From a candidate division FCPU426 bacterium (GTDB lineage: Bacteria > Oederibacteriota > PGYV01 > Palsa-1178), in assembly GCA_963840035.1 (NCBI GenBank), contig CAWIXE010000002.1:1312001-1376000 (forward strand): a stretch of DNA of 64,000 nt. The letters run 5' to 3'. This document shows, piece by piece, positions 1 to 59,421 of this stretch. Made by a program: the position numbers and the translations under genes. Position 1 is the first letter of the stretch. Each line of letters starts with the position of its first letter. The notes beneath the pieces are model-generated. The model was not told the DNA's origin and did not search any database. It saw only the letters and a list, made by a program, of their open reading frames with translations.

Positions 1-2747
1 GGATAAACAAGCACTTCATTATCATTTTGCGGCATGGTTACGGAGTGCGTTGGTGTTATTGTGGGGGTTATGGTTACTGTCGGGACAATATTTGGCGTTT
101 TGGTTTTTGTAAAGGTATATGCCGGCGTGGGGGTTTTTGTAAAAGTGCGCGTCCAGGTACGCGTCGCAGTAACAGTCGCGGTAGGGCTAAAAGACGGCGT
201 TTCAGTGGCTGACGCCGTAAATGTTTCTGTTATAGTCATTGTCCCTGTTGCCGTCATAGTGTATGTAAATGTCGGCGTATCTGTTTCCGTCGGCGGCGTG
301 CCCGTTATGGTCTGTGTCGGGCTGTAATCCGGAGTTTCTGTTTTGGTACTGGTAAAAGTCGTGCTTTGTGTTTTTGTGGATGTCATGGTAGCGGTTGATG
401 TCGCGGTTTTTGTGTTGCTTGGGGATGGTGTAAATGTGACAGTCCTTGAATAAGTCGGGGTCGCCGTAGCCGCCTTTGAATGCAGCACGAGGTTGTCCAT
501 GTAAAACACGCCGGTTTTGATTGCCGCAGGGTCGCTGTTTAGCGCAAAAAAGTAATTCACTATGGGGTCCGCCGCCGAAAGTGGCGCGGGATTTGGCTGT
601 GTCGCATGGCTGTCCGTGTCCAGCGCCGGGTCCAGGATAAATGTCAGGTGGTTCATCCCTGACTGTATGGTCACCGGGCCTGTCAGTTTTCTGTAGTCCT
701 TTCCATTTGATGTATCGACAAAAAGCTGAAGTTCATGCCAGCCCGAACCCGCGAGCCACGGCAGGTTTGCCGGGTCCACGTAAACATCCATGGTAAGCGT
801 CTCATACCCGCTCCAGTCCGTGGTTGTTATGCCGTTGCAGAAAATAATCTGATCATTCCATCCTGCCGCGGCTGTGATATCAACTTTTACAGAACCGGTA
901 CCTTCAAAAATAGCGGCCGGAACCGTTGTATTTATGGTTACCGTGGAATTTGTGCCTCCGGCAAGGGTCCCGTTGTATGTCAGCGAATCGCATGTATTAA
1001 GTATGGTAACAGGCGTCGTGGCTGTCGCGGTTAAGGTCGGAGTGGCTGACCAGTTTGGCGTACTTGTCCTTGATGCCGTCCTTGTGGAAGTTGGCGTAGA
1101 GGTCCAATTTGGCGTGTTGGTCGGTGTCGCGCCTGACTTTATAATAAAATGGAAGGCCGAATGCGCCGGGACCGAATACGAGAAAACGTTTCCGGAAATC
1201 GACGGCGCTGTCCTTAAGGTAATCGCGGAACTCGCGCCTCCAAAAGCCCAGGCCTCGCCCGATGTATACGTCTGCGCGCTTGCGATTGACACATTGGCAG
1301 TCTGCGCGGTGGCAGCCTTATTTAACACAATTACATGCACCGTCGAATCATCGCTTCCTGTTATAGACGCGTAGCATGTTATGTTCGGTATGTCATTTGA
1401 ATCGCACTGGACATTGGTATCTCCGTAGGTCCCGTTGGAACCGTTGTAATTGCGGTACAATTTGTACGCTGCAGAGTGGAATAGCCCGTAGCCGGATTTC
1501 CACATGGTGGCAAAGTATACGCCGTACTTCCCGAATATTCCAAGCACGTCAGCCAGGCATATTCCCCCGGAATAATCATTGCCGCCTCCAAATCCGTGCT
1601 CTGTAATGGCGATTTTTGTGCCGGGGTAATATGTATTTATCGAAGCCTGCACCTTCGGAAGCAGGGGCAACCCGTAGGTCCAGCTGTTTAACACATTTTC
1701 CCCTAGCGAGCTGTTCTCAACATATGTTGCGTCCCATAGCGACCTGGGCGATTGGAGGCGCGCCAGTGCCGCCGCCGTTGACGTACAGCCATCCGCTGTT
1801 ATCCTGCACTGGCCGCCCGAGAAATTAAACGGCGGGTACAGCCCTTCCCTTGCCTCGGAATAATAATGAATGTCTATGGCGTCGAGCAGCCTGCGTCCGT
1901 CCGCATCAGAAGCGGATTTCATCTGCTTTAAATAATAATCAACATACCACGAATAAGTGCCTTTCAGGGAAGCCCAATCAGCCCCTACGCTGGCCATGGT
2001 CCATACGCCGTAAAACGCCGGGCCGAAAACCTGCGCGTACTGGTCCACATCCTTGATGGCCTTGGAAAGGCTTATGCCCTTGTTCACCCACTCTGCCGCG
2101 CCGACAGGGGCCGGGTGGATGAGCGGGTGCGTCCCGTCCCACGCGTCCCCCTCGTTATCAAGCTGGTATATTTTAACCCCGGTCTGGGTCGAGGCATTGC
2201 CGTATTTTTGAACCAGGTGCCATACTTCCTCATCATCATATACATAACCGTCGCCGGTATCCGGCGGGAAAGCAAAAGCGCTCCCTTTTTTGAATACCAC
2301 CTGTTTCCATCTTGCTGACGGCGCAATTTCCGCCGCAGATACGGTCCCGTTCTTGTCAGCCGCGACGTACCCGGCCATGGGAAGCGTGAGTATGGACACG
2401 TAGTTGCGGCTGTTGCAGTATTCCACGAAATGATCTATGACTGAGGCAGGTGACGCGCATTCCGCGGCCGAGACGGGATACTCAGTGGCTCCGCACATGT
2501 AGTCGTCGCTTGACTGGAACCAGTCCGCACCGGCATTGGACGCGTTATTTTCCCAATTGTAACCGGTCATCCTGTTGCCGCCCAAACGCATGCAGGTTAA
2601 GTTTTCATCGCCTTCCATCTGCTGGTTGGTGCCGTAGATATAGGGGCTTATGGCAGAGCGGTTGTTATTTGTGTTTATTGTTATGGTGGCGGCATATGAC
2701 AGCTGTGCAAATATTAACGTGAAAACAAACGCAAGTTTTAGCCTCAT
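1..2747 (-). CDS. Secreted GH44 endoglucanase/xyloglucanase with Thr/Pro linkers, a CBM-like domain and the start of a C-terminal sorting domain (3' end runs off the window)
   Basis: Not in the ORF track (no stop in window). Manual translation from ATG 2747 (alternative 2753): signal peptide, ISPYIYGTN, RLGGNRMTGYNWENNASNAG, YYPGTKIAITEHG. The same frame at the window edge reads TPTHSVT...EVLVYP; frame spot-checked at three places. Confidence 0.85.
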   Translation of the reverse strand, partial: MRLKLAFVFTLIFAQLSYAATITINTNNNRSAISPYIYGTNQQMEGDENLTCMRLGGNRMTGYNWENNASNAGADWFQSSDDYMCGATEYPVSAAECASPASVIDHFVEYCNSRNYVSILTLPMAGYVAADKNGTVSAAEIAPSARWKQVVFKKGSAFAFPPDTGDGYVYDDEEVWHLVQKYGNASTQTGVKIYQLDNEGDAWDGTHPLIHPAPVGAAEWVNKGISLSKAIKDVDQYAQVFGPAFYGVWTMASVGADWASLKGTYSWYVDYYLKQMKSASDADGRRLLDAIDIHYYSEAREGLYPPFNFSGGQCRITADGCTSTAAALARLQSPRSLWDATYVENSSLGENVLNSWTYGLPLLPKVQASINTYYPGTKIAITEHGFGGGNDYSGGICLADVLGIFGKYGVYFATMWKSGYGLFHSAAYKLYRNYNGSNGTYGDTNVQCDSNDIPNITCYASITGSDDSTVHVIVLNKAATAQTANVSIASAQTYTSGEAWAFGGASSAITLRTAPSISGNVFSYSVPAHSAFHFIIKSGATPTNTPNWTSTPTSTRTASRTSTPNWSATPTLTATATTPVTILNTCDSLTYNGTLAGGTNSTVTINTTVPAAIFEGTGSVKVDITAAAGWNDQIIFCNGITTTDWSGYETLTMDVYVDPANLPWLAGSGWHELQLFVDTSNGKDYRKLTGPVTIQSGMNHLTFILDPALDTDSHATQPNPAPLSAADPIVNYFFALNSDPAAIKTGVFYMDNLVLHSKAATATPTYSRTVTFTPSPSNTKTATSTATMTSTKTQSTTFTSTKTETPDYSPTQTITGTPPTETDTPTFTYTMTATGTMTITETFTASATETPSFSPTATVTATRTWTRTFTKTPTPAYTFTKTKTPNIVPTVTITPTITPTHSVTMPQNDNEVLVY

Positions 2748-39897: not shown

Positions 39898-39975
39898 TGG
39901 TAGCGGCGGAGGGAGTCGAACCCCCGACACTACGGGTATGAACCGTATGCTCTAAACCAACTGAGCTACGCCGCC
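39898..39975 (-). tRNA. tRNA-Met (CAT), elongator type
   Basis: GGCGGCG acceptor stem, TACGG-TTCATAC-CCGTA anticodon arm, TTCGA, encoded CCA. Confidence 0.9.
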
Positions 39976-40446
39976 ACTAAAAATTTTTATAATGCCAAAT
40001 TTACTCAGGCTCAGTTCGTCGCCTTAAGGCGACGGTAACTGAGCTCAAATGTTGCGCGAGCCTTCAGGCGAGCGCTCGAAAATCAAAGGTTTACCTTCAT
40101 CTCATTTTGCCGGTTACTACCGGCACGCCGCCACTAAAAATTTTTATAATGCCAAATTTACTCAGGCTCAGTTCGTCGCCTTAAGGCGACGGTAACTGAG
40201 CTCAAATGTTGCGCGAGCCTTCAGGCGAGCGCTCGAAAATCAAAGGTTTACCTTCATCTCATTTTGCCGGTTACTACCGGCACGCCGCCACTAAAAATTT
40301 TTATAATGCCAAATTTACTCAGGCTCAGTTCGTCGCCTTAAGGCGACGGTAACTGAGCTAAAATGTTGTGTTCGCCTCAAGGCGAACACTCGAAGATCAA
40401 AGGTCCACCTTCATCTCATTTTGCCGGCTACTGCCGGCACGACGCC
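39968..40446. repeat. Tandem array, 3 x 157 bp, in the tRNA-Met leader
   Basis: Units begin at 39968, 40125 and 40282 (partial at 40439); first two look identical, third has substitutions. Confidence 0.92.
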
Positions 40447-40465
40447 ACAACGTTGGCCCCGTTTT

Positions 40466-40560
40466 ACCGTGGCCAGTAGTCGGCCACAACCGACACTGCC
40501 ACAGCGCTGGCTCCACCGTGGCCAGTAGTCGGCTACTGCCGACACTGCCACTGCGCTGGC
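40466..40560. repeat. Imperfect 49-bp direct duplication
   Basis: ACCGTGGCCAGTAGTCGGC...CCGACACTGCCAC.GCGCTGGC at 40466 and 40515. Confidence 0.8.
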
Positions 40561-57081: not shown

Positions 57082-57240
57082 GGTTATATTCTCCTCGATT
57101 GGTTTCGGCGTTTTAGCTTAAAATCAAGAACTTTCAGAAAGTAGAAAGGAGAAAGGTGACCGGGTAGGTCTCGAATTCATGTATTGTTCTCCTATCTCCT
57201 ATCTACTCTCTCCTATCTAAAATTTTGCGAAGCAAAATTT

Positions 57241-57317
57241 TGGTCGGGGTGACTGGTCTCGAACCAGCGACCTCTCGCACCCCAAGCGAGTGCGCTAGCC
57301 AACTGCGCTACACCCCG
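57241..57317 (-). tRNA. tRNA-Pro (GGG)
   Basis: CGGGGTG acceptor, CTCGC-TTGGGGT-GCGAG, CCA. Confidence 0.93.
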
Positions 57318-57423
57318 ACTACATCAATGTATGATTCATCTAAATTCATAATCGTGGTGTGTCCGGGAACGACCATTAATAGAAGATTCCTCTATTTAAT
57401 CGTTCCGGGCTACACCCCGACTA
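57307..57423. repeat. ~102 bp tRNA-Pro leader repeat unit
   Basis: GCTACACCCCGACTA at 57307 and 57409; homologous to the units at 57704-57916. Confidence 0.8.
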
Positions 57424-57638
57424 TTTCCAACAAGAATAGCAGACAAGAAAACTATCGGAGGCATCAAGTAAAGCACAACCTCGCCTCCACCGTCTCCTAT
57501 CTACTCTCTCCTATCTCATGTTCCTATTTCTTAAGAACAGGTTCTAAACCTAAAAAACAAGGTCAACTTCTCCAGAGAGTAGAGAGGAGAAAGGTGACCG
57601 AGGCTTACGCCTCTGAAAATTTTCGCAAGCGAAAATTT

Positions 57639-57714
57639 TGGTCGGGGCGACTGGATTTGAACCAGCGGCCTCTTGGTCCCGAACCAAGCGCGCTACCAAC
57701 TGCGCTACGCCCCG
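57639..57714 (-). tRNA. tRNA-Pro (CGG)
   Basis: CGGGGCG acceptor, CTTGG-TTCGGGA-CCAAG, CCA. Confidence 0.93.
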
Positions 57715-57916
57715 ACTACCTTAATGTATGCCTTATCTAAATTCAAAGTCGGGGCGTGTCCGGGAACGACTATTAATAGAAGATTCCTCTATCTCATCGT
57801 TCCGGGCTACGCCTACCGAGCTTAATGTATGCCTTATCTAAATTCAAAGTCGGGGCGTGTCCAGTAAAGGCTATAAATAAATCTTCATTAATCTAACCTT
57901 TACTGGGCTACGCCCC
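57704..57916. repeat. Two ~102 bp tRNA-Pro leader repeat units
   Basis: GCTACGCC at 57704, 57806 and 57907; shared TTAATGTATGCCTTATCTAAATTCAAAGTCGGGGCGTGTCC. Confidence 0.85.
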
Positions 57917-57998
57917 AACGCTGACACTTTAATGTTGCCTATTAACGCTTTTAAGAACGTTGATATCCTGACTTTTGTTCCTGTTTCAAAACTTCAAA

Positions 57999-58027
57999 AT
58001 TTTACCATTTATATATGCCGCTTTCAA
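57999..58027 (-). promoter_or_regulatory. Candidate promoter for the tRNA-Pro pair
   Basis: TTGAAA-17-TAAAAT with TG extension. Confidence 0.55.
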
Positions 58028-58035
58028 CGTTTATT

Positions 58036-58392
58036 TTAGTTTTCCAGCATCCTTAGAGCCTCTATTATTTCCTTCCTTACGTCCTTAAGCTTGTCCATGG
58101 TGAGCTTTTCTTCCACTCCAAAGAGCTCCATCTGCTCGCCGTCCAGGGCCGATATCATTTCCTTGAGCTTTTTCTGCGCGCCGCTTATTTTAAACTCGTC
58201 CTCATAAAGCAGCTTTTTTATCATTAATATCATGTCAATGTCGGTCTTTGTATACTTTCTCTGGCCTACCCTGTTCTTAATCGGCTGGAGCTCCTCAAAA
58301 TTCTGCTCCCAGAACCTTATTACAGACTCCCTGACTCCGGTAATCTGCGCCACTTCCCTTATGGGGTAATACTTTTTTTCTTTAATGTCCAT
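58036..58392 (-). CDS. MerR-family regulator
   Basis: KKYYPIREVAQITGV..SVIRFWEQNF..P.K..GQRKY. Confidence 0.9.
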   Translation of the reverse strand: MDIKEKKYYPIREVAQITGVRESVIRFWEQNFEELQPIKNRVGQRKYTKTDIDMILMIKKLLYEDEFKISGAQKKLKEMISALDGEQMELFGVEEKLTMDKLKDVRKEIIEALRMLEN

Positions 58393-58412: not shown

Positions 58413-59421
58413 TTACGCTTTTTTCAAGAATTCCTTTTCTGATTTTGGCGACCTGCCCATCAAGCCCTTAACAGACTCAGAGGGCGACTTGCCGTTATAT
58501 ATGGCCTCATATACTTCGTTTACTATCGGCATCTCAACCTTATACTTCTTCGCCAATTTATATATGGACAGGGTGGTCTTTACGCCTTCAGCCACCATTT
58601 CCATGGATTTTAATATTTCATCTATTTTTTTGCCTTTTCCAAGCTGCTCGCCGACGGCCCTGTTCCTGGAATGCCTGCTTCTCGCATGTCACAACCAGGT
58701 CCCCTATTCCGGAGAGGCCGAAGAACGTATCTTTATCCGCGCCCATGGCGACACCGAGCCTGCACATCTCCGCAAGCCCCCTTGTTATCAGGGCTGCCTT
58801 TGTATTGTCCCCCAGCTGAAGCCCGTCCAGGGTACCGGCGGCAATGGCAATGACATTTTTTACGCTGCCGCCGAGTTCCACGCCAAGCACATCTTTTGTA
58901 TTATAAGTCCTGAAATGGTTCGTAAAAAACAGGCCCTGAATCATCTCGGCAAGCTTTATATCCTTTGAAGCCACGACTACAGTGGTCGGCATTTTTCTCG
59001 CGACTTCTTCGGCGTGTGAAGGCCCTGAAAGGACGGCAAACCTGACATTCCCGAGGACGTCTTTTACCACCCTGGACATGGTCATAAGCGTCTCCTGCTC
59101 CACGCCTTTTACCACGCTTACGTATGTCTTCTTTTTATAGTCAAGTTCCTTTATGGATTTTAAAAGGCCGCGCATGACATGCGACGGTATGGCCAGCACG
59201 AGAATTTCCGAAGCGTCAACCGCCTGCTTTAAGTCGCTCGTGATGACGATATTTGCCGGGATCTTTACGCCCTTTAAAAATTTTATATTTTCCCTTTTGG
59301 AATCCAGTACTTCGGCATATTCCGCGAAGTATTCCCAGAGCGTTACCTGATGGTTTTCCTCGGCTAATAATATGGCAAGCGCCGTTCCCCAGCCGCCCGC
59401 TCCGATTACCGATACCTTCAT
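58413..59421 (-). pseudogene. gpsA: NAD(P)H glycerol-3-phosphate dehydrogenase with a +1 frameshift near 58680
   Basis: GAGGWG, SGPSHA, KNVIAI, GDLVVTC; SRHSRNRAVG...VAEG continues in another frame. Confidence 0.85.

What the first reader, a model, noticed from the sequence alone, without database searches (positions are those of the whole stretch)
57307..57916. tRNA-Pro leaders carry acceptor-stem mimics with covarying hairpins
Three ~102 bp units precede the two tRNA-Pro genes. The clearest one (57845-57916) reads GGGGCGTAGC-[stem]-ACACGCCCCGAC on the transcript, i.e. both tRNA acceptor strands closing a hairpin; the other two are degenerate in one strand. The stem differs between copies yet stays paired (CCGGAACGA/TCGTTCCCGG versus CCAGTAAAGG/CCTTTACTGG). 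ACGCCCCGAC can also pair with the 5' end of the downstream tRNA. The same logic as the tRNA-Met locus with unrelated sequence points to a general tRNA-leader mimic/anti-tRNA system, or to a tRNA-5'-targeted duplication process.
Basis: partly seen in the sequence, partly recalled or inferred. Interest (0 to 1): 0.72.

Follow-up and report, generated by a model that had tools for sequence, protein, structure and literature searches.

The report
Hairpin repeats built on tRNA-Pro starts
In one order of uncultured bacteria, proline tRNA genes are often preceded by one to three ~95-base units made of a copy of the tRNA's first ten bases fused to a long, structurally conserved hairpin; they are likely the scar of an old palindromic DNA insertion that has since been copied between tRNA-Pro genes, and an RNA role is possible but untested.

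Summary
The three units are real (fold z -5.7 to -9.6). A fourth precedes this genome's third tRNA-Pro gene. The family occurs in 11 of 24 genomes of the order and 0 of 75 other genomes of the phylum, always at tRNA-Pro, with a covarying 10-bp stem and no Rfam match.

The acceptor-mimic reading does not hold: no unit has CCA (0 of 30), only 8 of 30 keep a full 3' acceptor-like strand, and that strand follows the reverse complement of the 5' end, not the tRNA's 3' end. The tRNA-Met locus holds a different, dispersed repeat family (25 copies, 13 away from tRNAs).

Units are direct repeats of leader plus tRNA nt 1-10, interrupted at nt 10/11. A Desantisbacteria genome shows the same layout with a palindrome that has 36 dispersed copies. 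Units decay, vary in number and are homogenised within lineages. No cognate enzyme was found. Conserved bulge, ACAC and purine apex, and a sense-strand folding bias, leave RNA-level selection open (about 30%). The scan noted this family and look-alikes before on other DNA.

The parts
57999..58027 (-). Predicted sigma-70 promoter (TTGAAA-17-TAAAAT, TG-extended) about 75 nt upstream of unit 1; would co-transcribe units and tRNA-Pro(CGG)
   Evidence: consensus match only
57849..57919 (-). Unit 1 hairpin: copy of leader and tRNA nt -2..11 (57919-57907), 10-bp stem (57906-57897 / 57870-57861), A/T-rich inner hairpin, ACAC (57860-57857), anti-5' strand
57821..57848 (-). A/T-rich spacer of unit 1, identical to the first 28 nt of unit 2's spacer
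   Evidence: family D2
57748..57820 (-). Unit 2 hairpin: degenerate 5' arm, stem with one bulge, ACAC (57759-57756), intact anti-5' strand complementary to tRNA nt -2..8
57715..57747 (-). Spacer/leader of tRNA-Pro(CGG)
57639..57714 (-). tRNA-Pro(CGG), intact
57351..57421 (-). Unit 3 hairpin: 15-nt exact copy of leader and nt 1-11 of tRNA-Pro(GGG), same stem as unit 2, ACAC (57362-57359), degenerate anti strand
57318..57350 (-). Spacer/leader of tRNA-Pro(GGG), homologous to the spacers of units 1 and 2
   Evidence: families D1, D2
57241..57317 (-). tRNA-Pro(GGG), intact
58036..58392 (-). MerR-type helix-turn-helix gene, used as synteny anchor; no evidence that it acts on the units

Best explanation
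Each unit is a direct-repeat copy of the tRNA-Pro leader and first ten bases joined to a long imperfect palindrome, and is likely the scar of an old insertion of a small palindromic DNA element at tRNA nt 10/11, now immobile and bound to tRNA-Pro genes. Shown: the repeat, the junction, the hairpin, the restriction to tRNA-Pro, copy numbers of 0 to 3, decayed copies, and similarity by lineage rather than by isoacceptor. Inferred step 1: a single-strand nicking and joining enzyme (REP/RAYT- or Ssn-like; none identified) inserted the palindrome while duplicating leader plus nt 1-10, so an intact tRNA was left downstream. Inferred step 2: recombination or conversion through the 8-33 nt direct repeats expands, deletes and moves units between the three tRNA-Pro genes. 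Inferred step 3: arm-to-arm copying keeps the stem almost fully Watson-Crick and extends the palindrome into neighbouring tRNA-derived bases, which produces the apparent second acceptor strand. The units would be transcribed in the pre-tRNA leader and removed in processing; a selected RNA role is not required by this model.
For: Direct repeats of 8-23 nt between a unit's arm and the downstream tRNA end at nt 10 or 11 in most units and carry each gene's own variant bases; one unit has a 33-nt exact repeat (L121). The same layout and junction occur in a Ca. Desantisbacteria record (L083), where the hairpin is a dispersed repeat with 36 matches at up to 2 mismatches, 0 in the reversed control, mostly inserted in other simple repeats (20 places read). 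Four genomes of other orders have unrelated hairpins after tRNA-Pro nt 11-18. This genome has a second family with 25 hits, 12 in dead tRNA copies and 13 elsewhere, 10 of those inside REP-like arms. Patchy and unstable: 11 of 24 genomes on four separate branches, with truncated or decayed copies in G002, G003, G004, G011, G012, G022, G023. TGG-locus units score closest to CGG/GGG-locus units of their own lineage (f6: 41-46 versus at most 11 to this genome's TGG unit). Stems are 133 of 140 Watson-Crick, with 3 G-U, 1 A-C, 3 other. In L121 the two arm ends are swapped, as DNA arm conversion would give. 10 of 45 tRNA trailers form perfect hairpins that run 4-9 nt into the tRNA's own 3' end, the same extension at the other end. 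The anti strand matches leader bases -1/-2 rather than tRNA A73/C74 in the TGG unit here, G006 and L138.
Against: No dispersed copy of the unit core in this genome and none seen in relatives, so mobility is not shown for this family. No cognate enzyme: the 8 Y1 genes here are flanked by other repeats or none like it; Y1 genes are found in 7 of 11 unit-bearing genomes and 4 of 6 unit-free genomes with a visible tRNA-Pro; no reverse transcriptase. Pure arm-perfecting should erase the bulged A9 and the C11-A mismatch (18 of 25), yet these, ACAC, the 20-26 nt inner length and a GGA/AGG apex (23 of 25) persist across four families; part of this invariance is built into my search pattern and model. 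The inner hairpin gains 2.0 kcal/mol over shuffles on the sense strand but 0.5 on the antisense. A shared T-T mismatch persists beside a compensatory change in f6. In f1 the anti strand stays matched to the downstream 5' end while the unit's own arm decays (8 of 10 cases where they differ).
Confidence: 0.55

Rival explanations
1. The units, whatever their origin, are a selected RNA element of the tRNA-Pro precursor: a long irregular hairpin recognised by a nuclease (RNase III would be the first candidate) or an RNA-binding protein through the bulged GUAG/ACAC foot and purine apex, tuning precursor processing or stability.
For: Covariation in 11 of 18 pairs, score 0.519 versus 0.185, 0 of 500 shuffles, and far above slid controls (the alignment is fitted to the model and sequences are related). 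Conserved irregularities and apex, more inner pairs than shuffles (367 versus 334, sd 8) and a sense-strand folding bias. Always the same orientation, behind a predicted promoter. RNase P RNA and RNase III are encoded.
Against: Absent at visible tRNA-Pro genes in 6 genomes of the order and at single isoacceptors within unit-bearing genomes; frequent decay; G-U to A-C ratio 25:4 equals the compositional expectation (p 0.41); in secondary-structure models the copy arm lowers the tRNA's own acceptor pairing below 0.4 in 11 of 21 unit-plus-tRNA folds (two of these tRNAs fold weakly even alone, and tertiary contacts are not modelled).
Confidence: 0.28
2. One reading: an acceptor-stem mimic or anti-tRNA switch, in which the ACGCCCCGAC strand toggles between the unit's own arm and the nascent tRNA 5' strand and gates tRNA-Pro folding and RNase P cleavage.
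For: In f1 the anti strand pairs better with the downstream 5' end than with its own arm in 8 of 10 informative cases; predicted capture of the nascent tRNA 5' strand is 1.00 for window unit 2 and 0.99 for the TGG unit at a transcript cut at tRNA nt 45; it tracks leader bases -1/-2 in three loci.
Against: 0 of 30 units with CCA, 1 of 30 with a T-loop motif, 8 of 30 with a full 3' strand; weak in f6 and f10 and in window unit 3; capture is below 0.3 in 10 of 21 folds; no ligand or trigger is apparent; palindrome extension explains the strand without selection.
Confidence: 0.08
3. Each unit is a spare promoter module for tRNA-Pro, with the -35 at the stem foot and an extended -10 in the spacer.
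For: ATGAT/TGATA occurs in 13 of 24 spacers from four families; best promoter scores exceed shuffles on average (3.0 versus -0.6).
Against: Scores are far below native tRNA promoters (median 12.7); the window's own units score 1.1, -2.7 and -3.0; strong native promoters lie upstream; kin inflate the average.
Confidence: 0.05
4. The units are tandem tRNA-Pro gene duplicates whose middle decayed into a hairpin.
For: Length is close to a tRNA's; in G011 the anti strand plus spacer resembles the tRNA 3' end plus trailer; unit 1 matches tRNA nt 2-16 at all but one base.
Against: No D, anticodon or T arm remains; the 3' strand follows the complement of the 5' end, not the tRNA 3' end; one fixed architecture across four families.
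Confidence: 0.04

Closest known systems
GTAG-family REP/BIME repeats and RAYT (TnpA-REP) (PMC3733652 abstract and two tRNA passages; PMC8266576 and PMC3333891 passages)
   Same: GTAG at the foot of a palindrome; tandem arrays with variable copy number and linkers; local amplification as modelled for BIMEs; RAYT-like genes with their own REPs are in the genome.
   Different: The GTAG is the tRNA's own nt 7-10; 4 copies, all at tRNA-Pro; longer, with a variable stem; flanks no Y1 gene; no co-occurrence with Y1 genes. The two 'tRNA' passages of PMC3733652 concern REPs in tRNA-enzyme genes, not in tRNA genes.
tRNA gene fragments left by integrative elements (att repeats; PMC9897764 passages)
   Same: One partial and one complete tRNA copy in direct repeat flank the insert.
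   Different: The insert is about 80 nt with no integrase or cargo; the duplicated part is the leader plus 5' end; arrays are tandem.
Ssn nucleases and SRM/NTS hairpin repeats (PMC11893778 passages)
   Same: Hairpin repeats acted on as single-stranded DNA; a short GIY-YIG gene with flanking repeats is in the genome (L204).
   Different: Those flanking repeats are unlike the unit; the unit is not dispersed and not near a GIY-YIG gene.
tRNA-like processing signals (Haloferax t-element) and E. coli tyrT-type tRNA-linked repeats (recalled, named in earlier scan notes; no paper read)
   Same: tRNA-derived sequence repeated beside a tRNA gene on the same transcript.
   Different: No cloverleaf, T-loop or CCA; tyrT repeats carry the tRNA 3' end downstream; the unit ends about 25-40 nt before the tRNA and cannot itself define its 5' end.

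Membership tests
GTAG REP/BIME | GTAG tetranucleotide at the 5' foot of a palindrome | tested here: met
   GTAG in 24 of 25 aligned units, GCAG in one; partly imposed by the search, and it is tRNA nt 7-10
GTAG REP/BIME | Many dispersed extragenic copies | tested here: not met
   4 units in G000, all at tRNA-Pro; arm-independent core scan gave 17 hits, 3 window units and 14 unrelated
GTAG REP/BIME | 20-40 bp, family-constant sequence | tested here: not met
   Core 40-46 nt, hairpin 71-73 nt, 14 different stems
GTAG REP/BIME | Flanks a cognate RAYT gene | tested here: not met
   260 nt each side of 8 of 8 Y1 genes in G000 hold other repeats or none; Y1 found in 7 of 11 unit-bearing genomes
GTAG REP/BIME | Single-strand cleavage by TnpA-REP at CT/CA | not testable with these tools
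   Needs in vitro assay; a CA lies at the 3' foot in all ACAC-bearing units
Integrase att scar | Partial and complete tRNA copies in direct repeat | tested here: met
   8-33 nt repeats
Integrase att scar | Integrase or island between the copies | tested here: not met
   Only about 80 nt between copies, no gene
Ssn/SRM | Repeat flanks a short GIY-YIG gene and is dispersed | tested here: not met
   Flanks of the two short GIY-YIG genes read; different repeat at L204, none at L205
tRNA-like structure / acceptor mimic | T-loop and 3' CCA on a 7-bp acceptor helix (features recalled) | tested here: not met
   CCA 0 of 30, TTCRA 1 of 30, full 3' strand 8 of 30; not scored as tRNA
tRNA-like structure / acceptor mimic | Cleaved by RNase P or RNase Z | not testable with these tools
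   RNase P RNA is present; no assay possible
Any Rfam 15 family (T-box, ribozymes, riboswitches) | Match at gathering score | tested here: not met
   Only tRNA reaches threshold in the window region and 8 related loci; weak microRNA hits reflect the long hairpin

The most novel reading that the evidence does not exclude
A palindromic element that targets tRNA-Pro 5' ends was domesticated in this order into a new pre-tRNA leader RNA: a protein- or nuclease-recognised hairpin that, in one family, also carries an antisense strand able to capture the nascent tRNA's 5' end and so set the rate of tRNA-Pro maturation. With look-alikes in other phyla, this would be a recurrent, undescribed route by which selfish hairpins insert into essential tRNA genes and become tRNA regulators.
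Probability: 0.15. Interest if true: 0.75.

Novelty: new variant of a known kind. Interest (0 to 1): 0.4.

Why it matters
If the scar model holds, small palindromic repeats have a repeatable way to insert into the 5' end of an essential tRNA gene without killing it, and tRNA-Pro is a favoured site in several lineages; the enzyme is unknown and could be a new single-strand DNA tool. It is also a caution for RNA-motif discovery: strong covariation can come from DNA arm copying. If RNA selection is shown, it is a new tRNA leader element with no Rfam entry.

Tried and rejected
RAYT link: flanks and co-occurrence negative. Reverse transcriptase: none found in G000. CsrA sponge idea from the GGA apex: no csrA found in G000. 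Ssn link: different repeats. Promoter module: scores well below native. G-U excess as proof of RNA selection: 25:4 looked significant but equals the shuffle expectation. Leader peptide: by eye short frames in some f6 units, none with Pro codons in those read, none shared with f1; not pursued. Known ribozymes, T-box: no Rfam match. Phage carriage: 0 of 17 viral pattern hits were real units. Expression: no RNA holder listed; the one run laid covered only tRNA pieces of other organisms, which says nothing on expression. Lineage name: searches gave no usable name, so the order is cited by handles. Isoacceptor labels printed were faulty (GGG read as TGG); I used only the loci shown to be TGG. Literature: searches listed no paper describing such units; subscription journals and bioRxiv supplements were not searchable. 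The survey of Desantisbacteria relatives was not run.

Full report
Observation. The window lies in genome G000 (3.46 Mb, 3 contigs, 45 tRNA genes). Downstream of der, plsY, gpsA and a MerR-type gene are tRNA-Pro(CGG) at 57714-57639 and tRNA-Pro(GGG) at 57317-57241. Three units precede them at spacings of 101, 102 and 102 nt. Each folds as one long hairpin, z -9.6, -5.9 and -5.7. Units 2 and 3 share a stem; unit 1 has another. An upstream copy of a tRNA's own 5' end of 8 nt or more is seen at 7 of 45 tRNAs, including 3 of 3 tRNA-Pro, against 33 of 1856 control pairs. The third tRNA-Pro (TGG), on another contig, has a fourth unit. Rfam gives only the tRNAs.

Distribution. A covariance model from 15 units matched 11 of 24 genomes of the order at E 0.01 or better and 0 of 75 other genomes of the phylum (only the best 150 or 50 candidates per genome were scored). 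All 30 sense-strand hits that I read lie directly before or beside tRNA-Pro genes of all three anticodons. Six genomes show tRNA-Pro genes without units, one has a truncated unit, and in five the fetched locus held no tRNA, so absence there is not shown. Unit-bearing genomes fall on four separate branches of a two-protein tree with weak deep support. A pattern scan of GTDB gave 34 hits: 4 records with this family, 1 look-alike, 29 without the stem (judged from predicted folds). Metagenomes gave 11 real loci of 57 and viral contigs 0 of 17. An arm-independent scan of G000 found no core copy away from tRNA-Pro.

Anatomy. Consensus: leader plus tRNA nt 1-10, a pyrimidine, a 10-bp stem, 20-26 A/T-rich bases with a purine apex, the stem's other arm, ACAC, a variable strand, and an A/T-rich spacer. 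The stem covaries: 11 of 18 pairs change on both sides, 0 of 500 shuffles reach the score, with the caveats that the alignment is fitted and kin are not independent. Over 14 distinct stems 133 of 140 pairs are Watson-Crick (5 of 30 rows were dropped, 4 for lacking an anchor and 1 as a duplicate). A9 is bulged and nt 11 faces A as a mismatch in 18 of 25. The inner region pairs more than shuffles (367 versus 334) and gains 2.0 kcal/mol on the sense strand against 0.5 on the antisense; the G-U to A-C ratio is no higher than composition predicts.

The mimic reading. No unit has CCA (0 of 30), one has a T-loop motif, 8 have a full 3' acceptor-like strand. That strand pairs U8 and, in three loci, follows leader bases -1/-2 rather than A73/C74, so it is a reverse complement of the 5' end. 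It is strong in family f1, where it matches the downstream 5' end better than the unit's own arm in 8 of 10 informative cases, and weak in f6 and f10. Predicted capture of the nascent tRNA 5' strand is 1.00 for window unit 2, 0.26 for unit 3, and ranges from 0 to 1 over 21 folds. The genome shows the same extension at the other end: 24 of 45 tRNAs have a perfect trailer hairpin and 10 of these run 4-9 nt into the tRNA's 3' end. Homogenisation of inverted-repeat arms by template switching is an established mechanism (PMC8604942, start of abstract only).

The tRNA-Met locus. Its three 157-nt repeats hold tRNA nt 1-8, a double-hairpin insert of about 80 nt, tRNA nt 9-17 and a further hairpin. The insert is a separate family with 25 hits in G000: 12 in dead copies of tRNA-Met(CAT), Lys, Phe, Thr, Arg, Gly and Ala, and 13 elsewhere, 10 of them inside arms of a GTAG-footed repeat of the type that flanks one Y1 gene. 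So the logic shared with the Pro units is insertion into tRNA copies, not acceptor mimicry.

Origin. Direct repeats between a unit's arm and the tRNA are 8-23 nt, mostly end at nt 10 or 11, and carry each gene's own variants; one is 33 nt and its hairpin ends are swapped between arms (L121). A Ca. Desantisbacteria record has two tandem units of leader, tRNA-Pro nt 1-10 and a hairpin; that hairpin has 36 matches across its genome and mostly sits in other simple repeats. Four genomes of other orders have unrelated hairpins after tRNA-Pro nt 11-18. Units at the unlinked TGG gene resemble same-lineage CGG/GGG units more than other lineages' TGG units, and decayed copies are common. Together this supports insertion with duplication, then birth, death and conversion through the direct repeats. 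Against it: no dispersed copy or enzyme was found for this family, and the conserved bulge, ACAC, apex and sense-strand bias are not explained by arm copying.

Comparison. It works like a BIME array in amplification and variability (PMC3333891, passages) and has a REP-like GTAG foot (PMC8266576, passages; PMC3733652, abstract and two passages), but fails REP membership on dispersal, size and cognate gene. It shares the partial-plus-complete tRNA repeat of att scars (PMC9897764, passages) but has no integrase or cargo. It is not an Ssn repeat (PMC11893778, passages). Searches listed no description of it; closed journals and preprint supplements could hold one. Earlier notes of this scan report this family in another genome and look-alikes in other phyla; I tested only the parts stated.

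Verdict. Real, order-wide and apparently undescribed, but most likely an insertion scar maintained by DNA-level processes (0.55), with a selected leader RNA second (0.28) and the anti-tRNA switch a minor possibility limited to one family (0.08). Interest 0.4.

Noticed in passing
window 39976-40560 (minus strand), upstream of tRNA-Met(CAT) 39898-39975 and tilS: Three 157-nt repeats with a double-hairpin insert (40438-40362, 40281-40216, 40124-40059) after tRNA nt 8, plus further palindromes upstream. The tRNA lies next to tilS and is likely tRNA-Ile2.
   Followed up: yes
L039, L040, L041, L043, L044 (G000 tRNA-Arg TCT, Thr CGT, Phe, Lys TTT, Gly TCC, Ala CGC): Whole or partial dead tRNA copies carry the same ~80-nt insert at unpaired positions (nt 8/9, D loop, T loop in reverse); 13 more copies lie away from tRNAs, mostly in REP loops. 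No Rfam match; the enzyme is unknown. This family looks more mobile than the Pro units.
   Followed up: partly
G000 tRNA trailers, e.g. window 57610-57638 and 57212-57240: 24 of 45 tRNAs are followed by a perfect hairpin; 10 extend 4-9 nt into the tRNA's own 3' end.
   Followed up: partly
L061-L068: Eight Y1/HUH transposase-like genes; five short ones are flanked by their own GTAG-footed repeats, some in long tandem arrays.
   Followed up: partly
window 57135-57218, 57493-57516, 57573-57600: Purine/pyrimidine-skewed simple repeats (AGAGAGTAGATAGGAGA type) forming long hairpins after both tRNA-Pro genes and after several other tRNAs of the genome.
   Followed up: no
L083 / G099: A 22-nt palindrome with 36 genome-wide matches, inserted after nt 10 of tRNA-Pro 5' copies and in other simple repeats; one more insertion follows a tRNA-like GGGGAATAG start (L272).
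   Followed up: partly
window 58489-58968 region and 58618-59421: The gpsA frame called here is 267 aa and covers only about 250 of 334 profile positions; the 3' part may be frameshifted near 58640-58700.
   Followed up: no
L204: Short GIY-YIG gene flanked on both sides by tandem hairpin repeats, a candidate Ssn-type locus.
   Followed up: no
L130, L131, L150, L152, L153, L164, L167-L169, L172, L173: Chance hits of the pattern share a conserved GAACAC(A/G)TGT palindromic box between tRNA-Gly(TCC) and tRNA-Pro(GGG); it resembles a LexA-type operator (recalled).
   Followed up: no
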